Positions 25,881-32,000 of a stretch of DNA of 32,000 bases are shown in pieces (position 1 is the first letter of the stretch; each line of letters opens with the position of its first letter). Source of the DNA: Candidatus Kuenenia stuttgartensis (GTDB lineage: Bacteria > Planctomycetota > Brocadiia > Brocadiales > Brocadiaceae); NCBI RefSeq assembly GCF_900232105.1, contig NZ_LT934425.1, forward strand, positions 1,470,001 to 1,502,000, in the 5' to 3' direction. Below the pieces are notes generated by a model. It was not told the origin of the DNA, did no database searches, and was given only the letters and a program-made list of their open reading frames with translations. Made by a program: the position numbers and the translations under genes.

Positions 25881-26084
25881 TCAGTAAGTTGAGGTTTTTA
25901 TAATAATTTCTACCTTGAAAAGTCCCGGATCGTCAAATCCTTGTGCTCGTAGTGTAGCAACAACATATCCTGCTGGCCTGCGGCCTTCCTGTAAGACAAG
26001 TTCCCGTGTATCACGTATGTATTCACAATACTGAAGCAGTTCTTCGTACGGAGAATTGATGATGAGTTTATTAATATTTTTCAT
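25881..26084 (-). pseudogene. N-terminal remnant (~55 aa of homology) of a large type III-restriction-like Res/DEAD-box helicase
   Basis: INSPYEE...GRRPAGYVVA...FDDPGLF matches my recollection of the conserved N-terminus of ~900-1000-aa Res-like helicases. The ORF then ends after unrelated residues. ATGA overlap with the hepT stop. Confidence 0.35.
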
Positions 26085-26431
26085 GGATTGTTTTTAAGGA
26101 AAGGTATTTCTTCAAGTTTGATTATGAGAGACGGAAGGTCTTTAGTAACCGTCTGCCAGACAATATCCAGATTTATATCAAAATAGGCGTGAATCAGCCG
26201 GTTTCTCATGTTAATTATGCTTTTCCATGGGATATGAGAAAACCTCTCACGACAATCCTTTGAAACATTAGCGGCAGCCTCTCCTATAATCTCAACATCC
26301 TTAACCAGGGAAAGCACCAGCATACGGTTTTTGTCGAGTGACTTTCTGGCCTGCCCTTGAGCAAAAGAAACGGCCTCTTTCGCGGCATCGAGTATATGAT
26401 GCATCCGTACAATATCTTCTTTACTGCACAT
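26081..26431 (-). CDS. hepT: HepT (DUF86) toxin
   Basis: 116 aa. [11 protein letters not shown]...[18 protein letters not shown] carries the canonical R-x4-H-x-Y. Confidence 0.85.
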
Positions 26432-26726
26432 ATTGCACCTCTGCCGACTCGACTACCTCCTTGCGGAAATAGCGGCTTAAATCTTCCGGTGTCCGCAAGT
26501 CCACGTTGCGCCCGATGATTTCGCTTAATTCGATCTCCATGCCAGATAAGGTTATGAGACCCGGAATATGCTCCGGCTCAAACTCAACGAGAAGGTCTAT
26601 ATCGCTTTCTGGTCCAAAATCGCCATGCAGGCAGGAACCGAACAAAGACAGCTTGCGTATATGATGCCGCTTACAGAATTCGGCGATCTTGTCTTTTGGC
26701 AGTACTATATGGTTTTTTCTTTCCAT
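26421..26726 (-). CDS. mntA: MNT-type nucleotidyltransferase antitoxin
   Basis: 101 aa. [24 protein letters not shown]. 11-nt overlap with hepT. Confidence 0.85.
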
Positions 26727-26939: not shown

Positions 26940-27242
26940 TCATTCTACCTGATAATCTTCAAACTCTCTATCCATAGGATTTAGCGCTCTACCTCCAAAT
27001 CCCTCCCTGTGCAAACGGATATCCTTAATTATCTCTGCCGCCGAGCGCTCATCATTCCAAATGCCGTAGAGACCGCTCCCTTTGGTTTCGCGCTTCTTGT
27101 GACGCACTTTCACAGAAAGCACACCTTCCTTTAACGAGTGAATGATCTTCACAACCTTTGGAAGCACCTCGCCAGGCATTTCCCGAACTTCCCTAAGAAT
27201 AATCTTTTCATATTCAGCCCTTGTCCCCATAATTTCCTCCAT
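26940..27242 (-). CDS. Small antitoxin-like protein with no adjacent toxin gene (orphan)
   Basis: 100 aa (96 aa from ATG 27230, which has a GGAGGA SD). The N-terminal helical segment and C-terminal ...GLYGIWNDERSAAEIIKDIRLHRE resemble short type II antitoxins. No family assigned. Confidence 0.4.
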   Translation of the reverse strand: MEEIMGTRAEYEKIILREVREMPGEVLPKVVKIIHSLKEGVLSVKVRHKKRETKGSGLYGIWNDERSAAEIIKDIRLHREGFGGRALNPMDREFEDYQVE

Positions 27243-27522: not shown

Positions 27523-29478
27523 TTATTCTTCTGCGTCCTTTAAAAGGAGATTCAATTCTTTGAACAGTTTGTCAAATCGATCTAGAGCTTCCTCAAGATG
27601 CGGAAGGTTCTTTTTTATCATGCCCGAGTTTTCTACTAAGAATGATGCTGGTCCAAAGTGGTCGAATTCAGAAATATCTATTGAAAGCGTTCTGAAATGT
27701 TCCTCAACCTCTGCAACAACCCGCTTTGGTGCTTTTGAGGGCTTCTTGTCAGACAGCTGTTGAGATCCTTTCAGGCTGTAACATTCATTCACTAAAGTTA
27801 TATACGTTGAACGACCAAACATATCTTCAATATCAGCTTCATCTTGGTTAGCAAACATCTCGGCACTGAAGACGTGCCCTTTCTTAAGTATCTCGGAATC
27901 TCGGAGAGTGCGGATTTTCTTCTTGTCACCATCGTGAAAATCTGTAAAAACGGCAATGTGAAGTTTGTTGCAGCCGAAAAGAGTAATAAAGCTGCCTATC
28001 TTGTCTATTCCTCCGGCCGGAGCAATGACCCATTTTGAATCCAAGCCTTCTTTGCATTGTGATTTGAGTTCCTGAGAGAACCACTTGAGGTATAGCAGGT
28101 CGGACGGTCCCTCGACAAGCAACGTGTGCTTCCCGATGAATAGAGTCTGAGTGATCTCATAACCAAGGGCTGCTTGTAATGGGAACAGAGTGTCGGAATC
28201 CGTGCTTAGAACTTTGTCGCCTATCTTAGTTCCTAATGGTTGCTTATTCTTTACGACATCTTCAACCGTCCTGACACCCATGATGTTGTCGGGATCCACC
28301 ATAAAAGGGGAATGGGTACTGTAGATAACTTGAAAGTGCGGTTTTAGCTTTTCGTTTATGTATCTGAGCAAATCTCCCTGTGCTTTGGCGTGCAAGCTGA
28401 GACCGGGTTCGTCCAGAAGTAGAAAGAGATTCGTACCATAGGTCTTCCGTACTTGTGAGAACCACGCCAAGAAAGAAAAGAACCAAACGAAGCCTGTGCT
28501 GCGGTCTTCGAAGCTTACAGATACTTGATGTCGGGTGTTCTCTATACGAGTCATAAAGACATATCCACTATTGAACGGCGGCGGATCCTCTGCCAGTGCA
28601 TTTTCGAAGCGGAAGTTGACCCTTAAGTATTCATTCTGACTCCAATATTCAAATATCTCTCGGGTCAGCTTATTGGAAACACCCTCAAGCTTTGCTATTA
28701 AATGTTCAAGTTTACCTAACTCTTGAATTTCTTTTGGTGTAGTGCCGGCTAAATCAAGCAAGGCAAGGAAAATCTTCTCTGAGAATAAAAGTTTCTTAGA
28801 ACTTATGTTCTGGCTTAGCGCATTGAAGGAAACTCGCCCAGCCATTTTCTGGTAGTCAGCGAAATAGAGAAAAGTTGGAAGCCGTGTAGCCAATGCATTA
28901 TTGACCACTTGGCTTAGTTCCCCATTTGGGATATTCTTCTTAATCTTAGCAAGAACCTCTGCCTGTTCTGCTGAGGGTGTCTTGATGTTCTCAAGTTGTG
29001 TGATTATATCTGCAACAGAGAGAACCTTGGTCCCTTCTGTAATCTCTCCCTTCTCGGAACGAAGTTGCTTGAGATAATGCTTTACAACTTTCGCTTCGTC
29101 AACCTCAGTATTCCAACAGAGTTTGTTTCCATAGCCTTTGGTTACTGTGACCAGCTTACTCCTGATCGGGTTCACCCCGAATGTATCCTGCAAGACCTTT
29201 TCGTCTCTTTGGTCGAGTTCCCATACAGTCGTGAGTACATTAGCTGGTTTCTCATCCTTGATTACCTCGTAATCTGTTAAACCCTTCCTTGGATACTCCT
29301 CAAGGTCATCGAAGTCAGCTTGATCGCGTTCCACTGGCTTAAGTTTGTAGAGAGCCTGCAAGACTGCACTCTTTCCAGACTCATTTTTCCCGACTAGACA
29401 AGTAATAGGCGCTAGTGAAAATTCTTCTGAATCGTCAATGCACTTGTAATTATGAATTCTTACGGTTTTGAGTCTCAT
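27523..29478 (-). CDS. OLD-family nuclease: N-terminal ABC-type ATPase plus C-terminal Toprim domain, stand-alone (class 1-like)
   Basis: 651 aa. Walker A GKNESGKS, signature-like RSTGFVWFFSF, Walker B LFLLLDEPGLSLH, H-loop YSTHSPF. Toprim LLVEGPSDLLYL and DFHDGD. Strong AGGAGG SD. Confidence 0.75.
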   Translation of the reverse strand: MRLKTVRIHNYKCIDDSEEFSLAPITCLVGKNESGKSAVLQALYKLKPVERDQADFDDLEEYPRKGLTDYEVIKDEKPANVLTTVWELDQRDEKVLQDTFGVNPIRSKLVTVTKGYGNKLCWNTEVDEAKVVKHYLKQLRSEKGEITEGTKVLSVADIITQLENIKTPSAEQAEVLAKIKKNIPNGELSQVVNNALATRLPTFLYFADYQKMAGRVSFNALSQNISSKKLLFSEKIFLALLDLAGTTPKEIQELGKLEHLIAKLEGVSNKLTREIFEYWSQNEYLRVNFRFENALAEDPPPFNSGYVFMTRIENTRHQVSVSFEDRSTGFVWFFSFLAWFSQVRKTYGTNLFLLLDEPGLSLHAKAQGDLLRYINEKLKPHFQVIYSTHSPFMVDPDNIMGVRTVEDVVKNKQPLGTKIGDKVLSTDSDTLFPLQAALGYEITQTLFIGKHTLLVEGPSDLLYLKWFSQELKSQCKEGLDSKWVIAPAGGIDKIGSFITLFGCNKLHIAVFTDFHDGDKKKIRTLRDSEILKKGHVFSAEMFANQDEADIEDMFGRSTYITLVNECYSLKGSQQLSDKKPSKAPKRVVAEVEEHFRTLSIDISEFDHFGPASFLVENSGMIKKNLPHLEEALDRFDKLFKELNLLLKDAEE

Positions 29479-29725: not shown

Positions 29726-30097
29726 TTACCGTAAATCTTCTATCATCCTTTTAATAGTAATGGATAATGGTGACACTTCATGTGCACATATCCAAAATAC
29801 CTCTTCCGCATCAATATCAAAATAGTGATGTGCGATAATATCCCGGAAACCCATGGCGCCTTTCCAGTCGGTTTCAGAGTATTTCGAAAGAAGGCTGCCG
29901 CCTGTTATTTTGTCTATATTTTTCAAGGCTTCTCCGATGGAGATGAACAGCATGCAGATACCATCCAGCTTTTCCATACCGGCCGGCGAATCGGTAAAAT
30001 CGTCTGCGCTATGAATTTGTTCCGAACGACTTTTGATTTTTCCAAGGGCTTCATCAATCTGATGGAGTATTGACAGAACAAGGTCATTATCAAACAT
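29726..30097 (-). CDS. hepT: HepT (DUF86) toxin
   Basis: 123 aa. ...ISIGEALKNI...GFRDIIAHHYFDIDAEEVFW carries R-x4-H-x-Y. Confidence 0.85.
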   Translation of the reverse strand: MFDNDLVLSILHQIDEALGKIKSRSEQIHSADDFTDSPAGMEKLDGICMLFISIGEALKNIDKITGGSLLSKYSETDWKGAMGFRDIIAHHYFDIDAEEVFWICAHEVSPLSITIKRMIEDLR

Positions 30098-30380
30098 AGA
30101 CGCCCTCTTTCTCTATGCGTTCTTTAAGAAAAGGGTTCATCTTTTCCCGCATCCTGACAATATCAACCTGTTTCCGCACCCGGCTTTCAATCTCTTCCTT
30201 TATGTGCACCATTGCAAACGGGTTGGGAGTCTTTGTTTTTATACAGACGTCAACATCACTGTCCTCCCTCGCTTCATCCCGAGCAATCGAACCGAAGATT
30301 CCGATTTCAAGTATGCCGTATTTATCCGCAAAGTTCTGTTTGAAGTCGCGCAAAATGGCTAGTATATCATCTCTTCCCAT
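30090..30380 (-). CDS. mntA: MNT-type nucleotidyltransferase antitoxin
   Basis: 96 aa. IGIFGSIARDEAREDSDVDVCI. 8-nt overlap with hepT. AGGAGG SD. Confidence 0.85.
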   Translation of the reverse strand: MGRDDILAILRDFKQNFADKYGILEIGIFGSIARDEAREDSDVDVCIKTKTPNPFAMVHIKEEIESRVRKQVDIVRMREKMNPFLKERIEKEGVYV

Positions 30381-30482: not shown

Positions 30483-31106
30483 TTACCGTTTCATCAACTT
30501 TCCCTGGCTTTGAGCAGTTTTGATGACAGGATGATTAGCCGTAAAGATTTGTATCCCCGGCACTGTGACAAAGTCGCCATCATCGGTAATGACCTTTAGC
30601 ACACCTGCCTTTGAAATAGCTTCAAGGATAAACAGATCGTAGCCGTCGAGAGGCTGACTCGAAAGCCTTGAGAGAGCAGCATTAGTAACCTGTTCATCTA
30701 TTTGAAGGTCAAGCGTTTGAGCCATTGTGTTAACCTGGCTCCAGGCGGTTTGAACTTCTGCTACGACATTGGCCCGTTCTGTTGAATGGTTATGGCGGTA
30801 TTCTTTACTACCCAAGGCCCCATTAGAGCGGCTGTAAATCTCCCGCTCCGTCCTTTCGATCAGGTGTGCTAATTCTGCCAGAGAAAGTCCGCATCTGTGG
30901 AGTTGGCTTTTCGCTGAAATGGTCTTGCTGATGTATGATGGATAGTCGTTTGTTTGATAAGGTTTGGGACGCGTATCCGCCAGATCTGCCCTGGAATAAG
31001 TAACCCAGTACCATACATTGGTATCCACAAGAAAGATATCGTCTTGCCCCGGTGTGTCATTGCGAATATCGATTACTTCGGCATGGACTGTATAATTGAT
31101 TGCCAT
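30483..31106 (-). CDS. Enlarged PIN-domain nuclease (VapC-like core with N-terminal extension and central insertion)
   Basis: 207 aa. FLVDTNVW (first acidic residue), LDGYDLFILE, VITDDGDFVTVPGIQIF (C-terminal PIN motif). The start overlaps the upstream stop in TAATG. Confidence 0.7.
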   Translation of the reverse strand: MAINYTVHAEVIDIRNDTPGQDDIFLVDTNVWYWVTYSRADLADTRPKPYQTNDYPSYISKTISAKSQLHRCGLSLAELAHLIERTEREIYSRSNGALGSKEYRHNHSTERANVVAEVQTAWSQVNTMAQTLDLQIDEQVTNAALSRLSSQPLDGYDLFILEAISKAGVLKVITDDGDFVTVPGIQIFTANHPVIKTAQSQGKLMKR

Positions 31107-31453
31107 TATAAAGCCTCGGACTGTTCAAGCAGGACTTCGTCAACGGCCTTACGAACGTTAGGGTTGGAATAATACTCTTTAGAGTTCTCAATAACTCTTT
31201 TGAGAACCGCTAAACCTGTAGGGACAATGTTTGTAATTTTGAGGAGGCGGTTAAGGTCGTCAGGTTTAATATCTTTGAGTAGCCGACCAATGGCGGCATT
31301 AAAGAACGGTGATGCAAATATTTTCACATCCTTAAAATCAAGGGCAACGATATTGCCGCCTGATAATTCAGGGTGTATCAAGTTGAAAATTTTCTGACCG
31401 TCCTCCAGTGTAATGCAGTTTTCACCAACCAGATCAAATACGTTTATCTTCAT
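31106..31453 (-). CDS. STAS-like DUF4325 domain protein
   Basis: 115 aa. MKINVFDLVGENCITLEDGQKIF...VALDFKDVKIFASPFFNAAIGRL matches my recollection of the DUF4325 (STAS-like) pattern. GGAGG SD at 31461-31465. Confidence 0.65.
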   Translation of the reverse strand: MKINVFDLVGENCITLEDGQKIFNLIHPELSGGNIVALDFKDVKIFASPFFNAAIGRLLKDIKPDDLNRLLKITNIVPTGLAVLKRVIENSKEYYSNPNVRKAVDEVLLEQSEAL

Positions 31454-31470
31454 TTTAAAACCTCCATTGA

Positions 31471-31620
31471 TTAAAAAAGCGGCTCTTCAACAACTTCTGA
31501 CGCCAAGTGGTAATATGATTCATCACAAATAAAAGTTATATTTATAAGAGTTCCTTCAAAAAATGTAGACCTGTTCAAGAACTCTTCCCGCTTGCTATCT
31601 ATGTATAGCATAACCCTCAT
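31471..31620 (-). other. Out-of-frame continuation (49 codons) that probably is the true C-terminus of the GHKL ATPase
   Basis: The shifted frame reads (MRVM)LYIDSKREEFLNRSTFFEGTLINITFICDESYYHLASEVVEEPLF*. It ends 17 nt before the DUF4325 start. The GT-x-(I/V)-x-(I/V) segment is typical of the last strand of GHKL kinase-like folds. Confidence 0.45.
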
Positions 31621-32000
31621 GGCTAAATACCTCAAGTTTTCCCTTATTGATTTTTACGAACTCTTTAAGCAGATCAAGCCCCAGACCTCTATTATTTGGC
31701 TTCGTGGTTGTCCCGCGCTGAAATGCCCATTTCAGGCAGCTTGCGGCGTTCAAGGAGTGCGCCCGCGGATCATGTTTGAAAAACATTCTTACATTTGACG
31801 GTATCCCAACGCCAAAATCCACAACTGAAAGTTTAAGTTCATGTTTATTCGGGTAATGTTGACCGCAGCTAAAGATACCAATGGGCGACTGGCCATGCTC
31901 AAAGGCATTGGCGTAAATCTCCCAGACCCTGCCAACAATGGCATCCTTCAGCATTTCACTCACAGGAACCCATCCTCGCCCCAGCCAATTCGTTTTCAAG
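31595..32000 (-). CDS. GHKL-superfamily ATPase / RsbW-SpoIIAB-like kinase. The 5' end is outside the window and the reading frame stops prematurely at 31595.
   Basis: N-box VWEIYANAFEHG, G1 VVDFGVGIP, G2 NRGLGLDLLKEF. The ORF runs off the right window edge. Confidence 0.7.
   Translation of the reverse strand, partial: LKTNWLGRGWVPVSEMLKDAIVGRVWEIYANAFEHGQSPIGIFSCGQHYPNKHELKLSVVDFGVGIPSNVRMFFKHDPRAHSLNAASCLKWAFQRGTTTKPNNRGLGLDLLKEFVKINKGKLEVFSHEGYAIHR

What the first reader, a model, noticed from the sequence alone, without database searches (positions are those of the whole stretch)
30483..32000. Coupled GHKL ATPase -> STAS-like (DUF4325) -> enlarged PIN nuclease operon: candidate partner-switching-controlled toxin or defence system
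**Seen in sequence.**
- Three minus-strand genes are packed with almost no spacing.
- The ATPase reading frame (after the apparent frameshift) ends 17 nt before the DUF4325 start, which has a GGAGG SD.
- The DUF4325 stop and the PIN start overlap in TAATG (31104-31108).
- Gene 1 has GHKL N, G1 and G2 boxes of the RsbW/SpoIIAB anti-sigma kinase type.
- Gene 2 has the LDF-x-(D/G)V...(S)xFxNxxIGxL pattern of STAS-like DUF4325. Ser48 (FASPFF) sits where SpoIIAA/RsbV carry the phospho-serine.
- Gene 3 carries PIN acidic motifs but is ~70 aa larger than a VapC. It sits in the toxin position of a TA pair, with the STAS-like protein in the antitoxin position.

**Established knowledge.** RsbW/RsbV and SpoIIAB/SpoIIAA partner switches control sigma factors.

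**Inference.**
- Here the same logic appears to be wired to a nuclease effector. The kinase would phosphorylate or sequester the STAS-like protein, which in turn would gate the PIN domain.
- I cannot match this three-gene composition to any named TA or anti-phage system.
- The unit lies in an island of TA modules and an OLD nuclease, which fits a conflict role.
Basis: partly seen in the sequence, partly recalled or inferred. Interest (0 to 1): 0.85.

Follow-up and report, generated by a model that had tools for sequence, protein, structure and literature searches.

The report
Known VapKSC defence operon, kinase broken
The three genes are a copy of VapKSC, a kinase–antitoxin–RNase anti-phage toxin–antitoxin system described and tested in 2026 and already listed for this organism, so it is not new; in this genome the kinase gene carries a one-base frameshift.

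Summary
Three tightly packed minus-strand genes encode a GHKL ATPase (cut by the window end and frameshifted), a 115-aa DUF4325/STAS-like protein and a 207-aa enlarged PIN protein.

VapK kinase phosphorylates Ser48 of the antitoxin VapS, which releases the VapC PIN toxin. That operon gave about 2 logs of protection against one phage.

- The window's PIN protein matches crystallised Escherichia VapC (PDB 9z7o) at E=1.9e-52.
- The DUF4325 protein matches VapS at E=1.7e-22, with Ser48 and VapC Asp28 conserved.
- Candidatus Kuenenia stuttgartiensis, the source of this window, is listed twice in that paper's catalogue of 289 vapKSC operons.

So the system is already known.

What I add:
- vapK here carries a single inserted C (window 31603) that removes the last 43 residues. 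A relative whose VapC is 93% identical keeps an intact 294-aa VapK.
- A remnant of the 3' end of hsdS abuts vapK.
- In 18 of 68 assessable related loci the trio directly follows hsdR-hsdM-hsdS on the same strand.
- About a third of related loci lack an intact vapK.

The parts
30483..31106 (-). vapC: 207-aa enlarged PIN-domain toxin (stop codon included)
   Evidence: - ORF found.
- Pfam PIN E=2.9e-4, below the cut-off.
- Full-length match to PDB 9z7o chain C 'Escherichia VapC', E=1.9e-52.
- D28, E78/E84/E87, D154/D157 and D175/D176/D178 are invariant in 15 homologues.
31106..31453 (-). vapS: 115-aa STAS-like (DUF4325) antitoxin with a C-terminal helix region; its stop overlaps the vapC start by 1 nt
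   Evidence: - PF14213 E=9.4e-16.
- Matches PDB 9z7o chain A 'Escherichia VapS', E=1.7e-22, over residues 2-112.
- Ser48 (FASPFF) is conserved in 77 of 80 aligned sequences.
31461..31465 (-). GGAGG ribosome-binding site ahead of vapS
   Evidence: Read directly from the sequence. It ends 7 nt upstream of the ATG at 31453.
31471..31602 (-). vapK 3' tail: 43 codons plus stop, now out of frame with the body of the gene
   Evidence: - The translation IDSKREEF...EEPLF is 43/43 identical to the C-terminus of the intact VapK in L097.
- It matches the C-termini of all full-length homologues.
31603..31603 (-). Single inserted C that frameshifts vapK (GCTATA-C-ATAGAT versus GCTATA-ATAGAC/T in relatives)
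   Evidence: - DNA alignment with three relatives shows the extra base.
- The 920-bp region is identical in 10 independent K. stuttgartiensis assemblies.
31595..32000 (-). vapK body: GHKL kinase/ATPase domain with N, G1 and G2 boxes. It ends at a premature TAG (31595-31597), and the 5' part of the gene lies beyond the window end.
   Evidence: - HATPase_c E=3.9e-6.
- The full truncated gene is 253 aa in CP049055.1 (L001 8751-9512).
- NAFEH is at residue 150, DFGVG at 180 and GLGLD at 224.

Best explanation
**What it is.** The locus is the vapKSC operon of Candidatus Kuenenia stuttgartiensis. VapKSC is a three-component toxin-antitoxin / anti-phage system described in 2026.

**Published mechanism (shown for the Escherichia homologue, inferred here by homology).**
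- VapC, a PIN nuclease presumed in the paper to cut RNA, is held inactive in a VapS2-VapC2 complex.
- VapS binds through its STAS domain, and its C-terminal helix reaches the VapC active site.
- VapK has an N-terminal domain the paper calls STAS-like and a C-terminal GHKL kinase domain. It is proposed to be activated by single-stranded DNA that arises from DNA damage or phage infection.
- Active VapK phosphorylates VapS Ser48, which lies in the VapS-VapC interface. This releases VapC and arrests growth.

**Specific to this genome (shown here).**
- vapK carries a 1-nt insertion that replaces the last 43 residues with 'HR-stop'.
- In the AlphaFold model of an intact close homologue, this removes the last two beta-strands of the ATP-binding domain.
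- The N, G1 and G2 boxes remain.

**Consequence (inferred).**
- The kinase is probably non-functional. VapS-VapC then persists as a permanently inhibited pair, or at most as a simple two-gene toxin-antitoxin pair that no longer responds to the VapK signal.
- The cassette looks like the decayed distal end of an hsdR-hsdM-hsdS-vapK-vapS-vapC operon. Only the last ~55 codons of hsdS survive, and they overlap the vapK start.
For: **Homology to the characterised system.**
- VapC matches PDB 9z7o_C at E=1.9e-52 over its full length.
- VapS matches 9z7o_A at E=1.7e-22.
- Ser48 and VapC Asp28 are conserved.
- The published experiments and model are in PMC13373217, sections 13-14.
- Ca. K. stuttgartiensis is listed twice in Dataset EV3. 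In strain CH1 one gene ID is skipped between VapK and VapS, which could reflect the split gene.

**Conserved gene order.** The K-S-C order recurs across phyla.

**Frameshift.**
- There is a single extra C relative to three relatives.
- The sequence is identical in 10 assemblies.
- The window is 100% identical to CP049055.1 over 11.5 kb.
- The closest relative has an intact 294-aa VapK.
- AF2 model of the intact homologue: pLDDT 84, pTM 0.87, with strands at 257-261 and 269-276 beyond the truncation point.
- The GHKL fold is confirmed by Foldseek hits to TopoVI-B and GyrB ATPase domains.

**hsdS remnant and R-M linkage.**
Against: - No experiment exists on the Kuenenia proteins.
- The truncated VapK keeps all ATP-binding motifs, so residual activity cannot be excluded.
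- The out-of-frame tail shows no decay: 43/43 aa identical to the relative, with 4 synonymous and 0 non-synonymous differences. This fits a very recent lesion, but would also fit continued translation of the tail.
- VapK activation by ssDNA is not demonstrated biochemically even in the source paper. It rests on an AF3 model and the F54A phenotype.
- The STAS nature of the VapK N-terminal domain was not confirmed here. hhalign against VapS gave E=0.11.
Confidence: 0.85

Rival explanations
1. The operon is still a working three-component switch in Kuenenia. Either the 253-aa truncated VapK remains an active kinase, or it is complemented by the separately translated 49-54-aa tail ORF, or a +1 recoding event restores the full-length protein.
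For: - The N, G1 and G2 boxes are retained.
- The tail ORF is intact and 43/43 identical to the relative's.
- An ATG with an upstream GAGG exists for the tail ORF.
- The frameshifted allele is the only one seen in 10 assemblies, and VapC occurs in 427 collection blocks.
Against: - The site (GCU AUA CAU AGA UAG C) has no slippery codon that would allow tRNA re-pairing in the +1 frame (my reading).
- Other genomes show vapK splits at different positions, or complete loss. That pattern indicates ordinary decay.
- The lost segment includes two predicted core beta-strands of the Bergerat fold.
Confidence: 0.1
2. The apparent frameshift is an assembly or sequencing artefact, and vapK is intact in the organism.
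For: Single-base indels are a common error type, and several MAG-derived relatives also show split vapK genes.
Against: - The 920 bp are identical in 10 assemblies from NCBI, JGI and ENA, including a closed 4.33-Mb genome.
- The extra base is not in a homopolymer run.
- The 253-aa product forms its own protein cluster, P0245.
Confidence: 0.03
3. It is a classical anti-sigma / anti-anti-sigma partner switch (RsbW/RsbV or SpoIIAB/SpoIIAA type) that regulates transcription, and the PIN gene is merely adjacent.
For: The pairing of a GHKL domain with a STAS-like protein bearing a conserved Ser resembles those modules.
Against: - There is no sigma-factor gene in the operon.
- HATPase_c_2 reaches only E=0.086.
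- The PIN gene is coupled to vapS by a shared base, and co-occurs with it in 78 of 80 loci. The two exceptions lie at contig ends.
- The crystal structure shows VapS bound directly to VapC.
Confidence: 0.01

Closest known systems
VapKSC of Escherichia sp. E4736 (Chambers et al., EMBO J 2026; PDB 9z7o)
   Same: - Same three genes in the same order.
- VapC and VapS are direct homologues (E=1.9e-52 and 1.7e-22).
- Ser48, Asp28 and the VapS C-terminal region are conserved.
- The same organism is in the authors' catalogue.
   Different: - vapK is truncated by a 1-nt insertion here.
- The Kuenenia copy belongs to a clade that is often fused to the end of a type I R-M operon, of which only an hsdS stub remains here.
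- No experimental data exist for this copy.
CapK-CapS (same paper): ssDNA-activated kinase plus STAS-wHTH repressor upstream of CBASS, Bub and other immune operons
   Same: - A GHKL kinase with an internal STAS domain phosphorylates a conserved Ser on a small STAS protein.
- It is often found just downstream of R-M systems (88 of 443).
   Different: - CapS carries a wHTH domain and represses transcription. VapS here (115 aa) has only DUF4325 plus a short helix, and inhibits a nuclease by direct binding.
- CapK has an extra N-terminal HTH domain.
SpoIIAB-SpoIIAA and RsbW-RsbV partner switches
   Same: A GHKL Ser kinase phosphorylates a conserved serine on helix 2 of a STAS protein to change its binding partner.
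   Different: - The output there is a sigma factor sequestered by the kinase. Here the output is a PIN toxin sequestered by the STAS protein.
- There is no sigma factor or PP2C phosphatase in the operon.
- The Pfam HATPase_c_2 model is not significantly matched.
VapBC type II toxin-antitoxin systems / PIN.4 group of Matelska et al. 2017
   Same: - PIN-domain toxin with the antitoxin gene immediately upstream and overlapping.
[quoted passage not shown]
   Different: - The antitoxin is STAS-like, not an RHH, AbrB or HTH DNA binder.
- According to the paper it does not displace the active-site Mg2+.
- The toxin is about 70 aa larger than typical VapC.
- A third, kinase gene provides the trigger.
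PrrC-EcoprrI and other abortive-infection genes embedded in type I R-M loci (from my own knowledge)
   Same: A latent RNA-targeting toxin is encoded inside or next to a type I hsd operon as a second line of defence.
   Different: - PrrC is an anticodon nuclease held in check by the R-M complex itself and activated by the T4 Stp peptide.
- Here control is by a kinase/STAS pair, and any functional link to the R-M enzyme is untested.

Membership tests
VapKSC (Chambers et al. 2026) | Three-gene operon in the order vapK (kinase) - vapS (STAS) - vapC (PIN), co-directional and tightly spaced | tested here: met
   - 17-nt and 1-nt-overlap junctions.
- The same order recurs in dozens of related loci.
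VapKSC (Chambers et al. 2026) | VapC homologous to the characterised VapC, with the catalytic Asp28 | tested here: met
   - PDB 9z7o_C: E=1.9e-52, residues 1-205 aligned to 1-202.
- D28 is invariant.
VapKSC (Chambers et al. 2026) | VapS is a STAS domain plus a short C-terminal inhibitory region, homologous to the characterised VapS | tested here: met
   - PDB 9z7o_A: E=1.7e-22 over residues 2-112, which includes the C-terminal region.
- PF14213: E=9.4e-16.
VapKSC (Chambers et al. 2026) | Conserved Ser/Thr phospho-acceptor in VapS (Escherichia S48) | tested here: met
   FASPFF aligns residue for residue with Escherichia FASPFF. Ser is present in 77 of 80 sequences.
VapKSC (Chambers et al. 2026) | VapK has a GHKL kinase domain | tested here: met
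   - HATPase_c: E=3.9e-6 on the window fragment and 2.2e-6 on a full-length homologue.
- The AF2 model of the homologue hits TopoVI-B and GyrB ATPase domains.
- Kinase activity as opposed to ATPase activity was not tested.
VapKSC (Chambers et al. 2026) | VapK has an N-terminal STAS domain | tested here: inconclusive
   - The AF2 model gives an alternating beta-alpha N-terminal domain (residues 1-125).
- hhalign against the VapS profile gave E=0.11.
- Foldseek hits covered only the GHKL half.
VapKSC (Chambers et al. 2026) | All three genes intact | tested here: not met
   vapK is truncated at residue 251 by a 1-nt insertion. vapS and vapC are intact.
VapKSC (Chambers et al. 2026) | Conserved aromatic residue of the putative ssDNA site (Escherichia VapK F54) | tested here: inconclusive
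   F44 and F52 are invariant or nearly invariant in VapK alignments.
VapKSC (Chambers et al. 2026) | Listed by the authors as a vapKSC operon | tested here: met
   Dataset EV3 lists 'Candidatus Kuenenia stuttgartiensis' and 'Ca. K. stuttgartiensis CH1'.
VapKSC (Chambers et al. 2026) | VapC toxicity, neutralisation by VapS, phosphorylation-dependent release, and phage protection | not testable with these tools
   Requires experiments. Shown only for the Escherichia operon.
RsbW/RsbV or SpoIIAB/SpoIIAA partner switch | The kinase doubles as an anti-sigma factor, with a cognate sigma-factor gene in the module | tested here: not met
   - No sigma-factor gene is present in the Kuenenia locus or in related loci.
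- HATPase_c_2 reaches only E=0.086.
Canonical VapBC type II TA | Antitoxin with a DNA-binding domain (RHH, AbrB, HTH or PHD) upstream of the PIN toxin | tested here: not met
   The upstream protein matches only DUF4325 / STAS-like.
CapK-CapS regulators | CapS = STAS + wHTH repressor; CapK = HTH + STAS + GHKL; followed by an immune operon | tested here: not met
   - VapS is 115 aa with no HTH hit.
- VapK homologues of ~294 aa show no HTH hit.
- The downstream gene is the PIN toxin itself.
PIN.4 group (Matelska et al. 2017) | PF01850-type PIN with 5-6 conserved acidic residues, encoded next to a DUF4325 gene | tested here: met
   

The most novel reading that the evidence does not exclude
**Reading.** In the clade that contains the Kuenenia copy, vapKSC is not a free-standing island gene set. 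It is the distal half of a single hsdR-hsdM-hsdS-vapK-vapS-vapC operon.

**Counts.**
- hsdS ends 250 nt or less upstream on the same strand in 18 of 68 assessable loci.
- In 13 loci (of the 21 with adjacent hsdS, counted without the ≥1.5-kb upstream-sequence filter) the spacing is -4 to +4 nt.

**What this would mean.**
- It would be a hard-wired two-layer defence. The ssDNA-sensing VapK would be triggered by DNA processing that follows type I restriction, or by the failure of restriction, and would then unleash the VapC RNase.
- The frequent loss or splitting of vapK (about a third of loci, including Kuenenia) would then reflect selection against a costly self-triggering sensor.

**Status.** The source paper proposes R-M coupling for CapKS only, and does not discuss it for VapKSC.
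Probability: 0.3. Interest if true: 0.45.

Novelty: already known. Interest (0 to 1): 0.15.

Why it matters
As a discovery it no longer matters. The system was named, crystallised and shown to defend against phage in 2026, and this organism's copy is in that paper's table.

The residual value is descriptive:
- An anammox bacterium carries a decayed VapKSC with a broken sensor kinase. This is a natural 'kinase-minus' allele.
- The comparative data point to a recurrent type I R-M-vapKSC super-operon, and to frequent vapK loss. Both could guide follow-up work on how the system is triggered and what it costs.

Tried and rejected
- **PADLOC-DB v2 (2023).** No model for VapS. Only weak, irrelevant hits for VapC (AbiEi, E=0.004) and VapK (DrmA, E=2e-5). 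The library predates the system.
- **Literature searches.** 'PF14213' found nothing. 'STAS-like/PIN/GHKL' returned mostly irrelevant papers.
- **VapK profile against PDB sequences.** Only weak CheA ATPase-domain hits, E~1e-3.
- **Foldseek against PDB.** Generic GHKL hits only, with low TM-scores because of the two-domain query.
- **hhalign of the VapK N-terminal domain against VapS.** Not significant.
- **Structure prediction from locus-derived sequences.** I redid it with database proteins.
- **Homologue search with the 134-aa window fragment.** It returned only short fragments.
- **Promoter/terminator scan around the operon.** No more sites than in shuffled sequence.
- **Mobility.** No VapC relatives in PLSDB plasmids or INPHARED phages, and only 4 in IMG/VR. 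The system is not mainly plasmid- or phage-borne.
- **Programmed +1 frameshifting.** Considered and judged unlikely from the codon context.
- **dN/dS against the closest relative.** It has no power to date the frameshift.
Full report
**1. The observation**

The minus strand of window 30483-32000 carries three closely packed reading frames:
- a 207-aa ORF at 30483-31106;
- a 115-aa ORF at 31106-31453;
- an ORF at 31595-31999 that runs out of the window, followed by a 54-aa ORF in another frame at 31471-31635.

- TAATG is shared between the second and third genes.
- The out-of-frame tail ends in TAA 17 nt before the ATG at 31453.
- GGAGG lies at 31461-31465.

Pfam gives the following:
- DUF4325 at E=9.4e-16 for the 115-aa protein;
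- HATPase_c at E=3.9e-6 for the ATPase fragment, just above the gathering score;
- PIN at E=2.9e-4 for the 207-aa protein, just below the gathering score;
- HATPase_c_2, the RsbW/SpoIIAB-type model, at only E=0.086.

PADLOC-DB v2 recognises none of the three.

**2. Source and full locus**

- The exact 207-aa protein is encoded in many assemblies of Candidatus Kuenenia stuttgartiensis, an anammox planctomycete. The window is 100% identical to the closed genome CP049055.1 over the 11.5 kb held.
- In that genome the ATPase is a 253-aa ORF followed by the out-of-frame tail.
- It is preceded, with a 4-nt overlap, by a 73-aa ORF.
- The island sits between a urocanase gene and pterin-4a/recG. It also holds two MNT/HepT pairs and a 651-aa OLD-family ATPase-nuclease.

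**3. The system is already described**

Two earlier papers cover it.

*Matelska et al. [quoted passage not shown]

*Chambers et al., EMBO J 2026 (PMC13373217; preprint February 2026).* A search combining STAS, PIN domain and defence found this paper. It names a three-gene operon vapKSC:
- VapK has STAS and GHKL kinase domains;
- VapC is a VapC-like PIN protein.

The authors report the following:
- a 3.4 Å VapS2VapC2 crystal structure;
- VapC toxicity that D28A abolishes;
- rescue by VapS, but not by VapS lacking its C-terminal region or by VapS S48E;
- loss of VapS-VapC co-purification with S48E;
- an AF3 model in which S48 faces the VapK active site and ssDNA binds VapK at F54;
- about 2 logs of protection against phage Bas42, lost in the VapC D28A, VapS S48A and VapK F54A mutants;
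- 289 operons catalogued, 36% of them within 10 kb of another defence gene.

**4. Membership tested directly**

- The window's PIN protein matches PDB 9z7o chain C ('Escherichia VapC') at E=1.9e-52 over its whole length, with FLVDTNVWYW (Asp28) conserved.
- The DUF4325 protein matches chain A ('Escherichia VapS') at E=1.7e-22 over residues 2-112. The motif FASPFFN (Ser48) is conserved, and the C-terminal region is included.
- Across 80 VapS sequences, Ser48 is present in 77.
- In 15 diverse VapC homologues, D28, E78/E84/E87, D154/D157 and D175/D176/D178 are invariant.
- The authors' Dataset EV3 lists 'Candidatus Kuenenia stuttgartiensis' and 'Ca. K. stuttgartiensis CH1'. It also lists several genomes I retrieved independently: Planctomycetes GWA2_39_15, Calothrix NIES-2100 and Brevibacillus borstelensis.

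**5. What is particular here: a broken kinase gene**

- Homologues encode a single VapK of about 292-296 aa that covers both Kuenenia pieces.
- DNA alignment with three relatives shows one extra C in Kuenenia: GCTATA-C-ATAGAT, at window 31603.
- The 920-bp region is identical in ten independent assemblies, so this is not an assembly error.
- The closest relative found has VapC 93% identical and the same downstream MNT gene. It has an intact 294-aa VapK.
- The out-of-frame tail is still 43/43 identical at protein level to that relative. This suggests a recent lesion, although the comparison cannot date it.
- An AlphaFold2 model of the intact homologue (pLDDT 84, pTM 0.87) places strands 257-261 and 269-276 after the truncation point at residue 251. 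The N (N150), G1 (D180) and G2 (G224) boxes lie before it.
- Foldseek confirms a Bergerat/GHKL fold.
- I could not independently confirm that the N-terminal domain is STAS-like.
- I infer that the kinase is probably inactive. VapS-VapC would then be left as a locked pair, or as a simple toxin-antitoxin pair.

**6. Comparative context**

*Distribution.*
- A scan of one genome per species found VapC relatives in 287 genomes. I examined the best 80.
- DUF4325 lies immediately upstream of the PIN gene in 78 of the 80 loci. The two exceptions are cut by contig ends. The ATPase lies upstream of DUF4325 in most loci.
- The loci come from Cyanobacteria, Nitrospirae, Desulfobacterota, Planctomycetes, Acidobacteria, Chlorobi, Ignavibacteria, Gammaproteobacteria and an archaeal MAG.

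*State of vapK.*
- vapK is intact in 50 loci, split or truncated in about 13, and absent in 13.
- Many of these are MAGs, so some splits may be sequencing errors.

*Link to type I restriction-modification.*
- The 73-aa ORF upstream of Kuenenia vapK is the last ~55 residues of a type I HsdS subunit. It is 79% identical to the full-length HsdS of a relative.
- hsdS ends 250 nt or less upstream of the module, on the same strand, in 18 of 68 assessable loci. In 13 loci (counted without the ≥1.5-kb upstream-sequence filter) the spacing is -4 to +4 nt. It is usually preceded by hsdR and hsdM.
- The Kuenenia copy thus looks like the surviving distal end of an hsdRMS-vapKSC cassette.
- The source paper stresses R-M adjacency for capKS. 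For vapKSC it only records PADLOC hits.

*Other contexts.*
- A Brevibacillus prophage end, between the lysis genes and the integrase.
- A cyanobacterial defence island that lacks vapK.
- The family is absent from PLSDB plasmids and INPHARED phages, and rare in IMG/VR.

**7. Verdict**

- It is an already-known system, VapKSC, so interest is low.
- My additions are modest: the vapK frameshift, the hsdS stub, the recurrent R-M-vapKSC operon, and the frequent loss of vapK.
- The most novel reading still open is a functional coupling between type I restriction and VapK activation.

Noticed in passing
L001 8533-8754 (just beyond the window end; would be window ~32353-32574, minus strand): A 73-aa ORF overlaps the vapK start by 4 nt. 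It is the C-terminal ~55 residues of a type I R-M HsdS subunit, 79% identical to the intact HsdS of L094. The rest of the hsd operon is gone in Kuenenia.
   Followed up: yes
L012, L015, L018, L023, L029, L032, L055, L065, L066, L079, L089, L090 and others: There is a recurrent six-gene arrangement hsdR-hsdM-hsdS-vapK-vapS-vapC on one strand. hsdS ends 250 nt or less upstream in 18 of 68 assessable loci. In 13 loci (counted without the ≥1.5-kb upstream-sequence filter) hsdS and vapK overlap or abut (-4 to +4 nt). The VapKSC paper does not discuss this.
   Followed up: partly
L011-L090 (80 loci): vapK is split or truncated in about 13 loci and absent in 13, while vapS-vapC stay intact (vapC is intact in 76 of 80). 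The kinase seems to be lost preferentially. Some splits may be MAG assembly errors.
   Followed up: partly
window 27523-29478 (-): A 651-aa ATPase-nuclease: Pfam AAA_15/AAA_21, PADLOC AriA E=2.6e-28 and Old E=4.1e-26. It is a standalone OLD-family defence candidate, followed by a 100-aa ORF (26940-27242) with no family hit.
   Followed up: partly
window 30090-30380 / 29726-30097 and 26421-26726 / 26081-26431 (-): Two MNT/HepT (NTP_transf_2 / HepT-like) toxin-antitoxin pairs flank the OLD-like gene. Both MNT proteins hit the PADLOC candidate family PDC-S09.
   Followed up: partly
L097 3777-5870 and L096 2468-4561: In the closest relative (VapC 93% identical), the OLD-like gene is replaced by a 697-aa SIR2_2 protein and the HepT gene is cut to 35 aa. 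Defence genes are turning over at the same spot. hsdS there is a 211-aa half-subunit next to a Y1 transposase.
   Followed up: no
L094 2025-4580: An 851-aa AAA_13/SMC_N ATPase is inserted between hsdS and vapK in a groundwater relative. This is another accessory gene inside the type I R-M-vapKSC operon.
   Followed up: no
P0254, P0275, P0284-P0286, P0300, P0305: VapK variants of about 392-398 aa carry an N-terminal extension of ~100 aa with no Pfam hit. The extension could correspond to the HTH seen in CapK, or could be a start-codon artefact.
   Followed up: partly
L093 4870-6729 (Brevibacillus borstelensis): vapKSC sits at a prophage end, between the holin/amidase lysis genes and the integrase. 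This is a typical position for phage-carried defence cargo.
   Followed up: no
L001 vs L097 (vapK, vapS, vapC): Synonymous divergence is very uneven: vapK dS 0.59, vapC 0.165, vapS 0.03. This suggests recombination within the operon between lineages.
   Followed up: no
L039 4430-5221 and L049 7210-8001: In two cyanobacterial loci without vapK, the DUF4325 region lies in a 263-aa ORF. This is either an N-terminally extended VapS or an upstream-start artefact.
   Followed up: no
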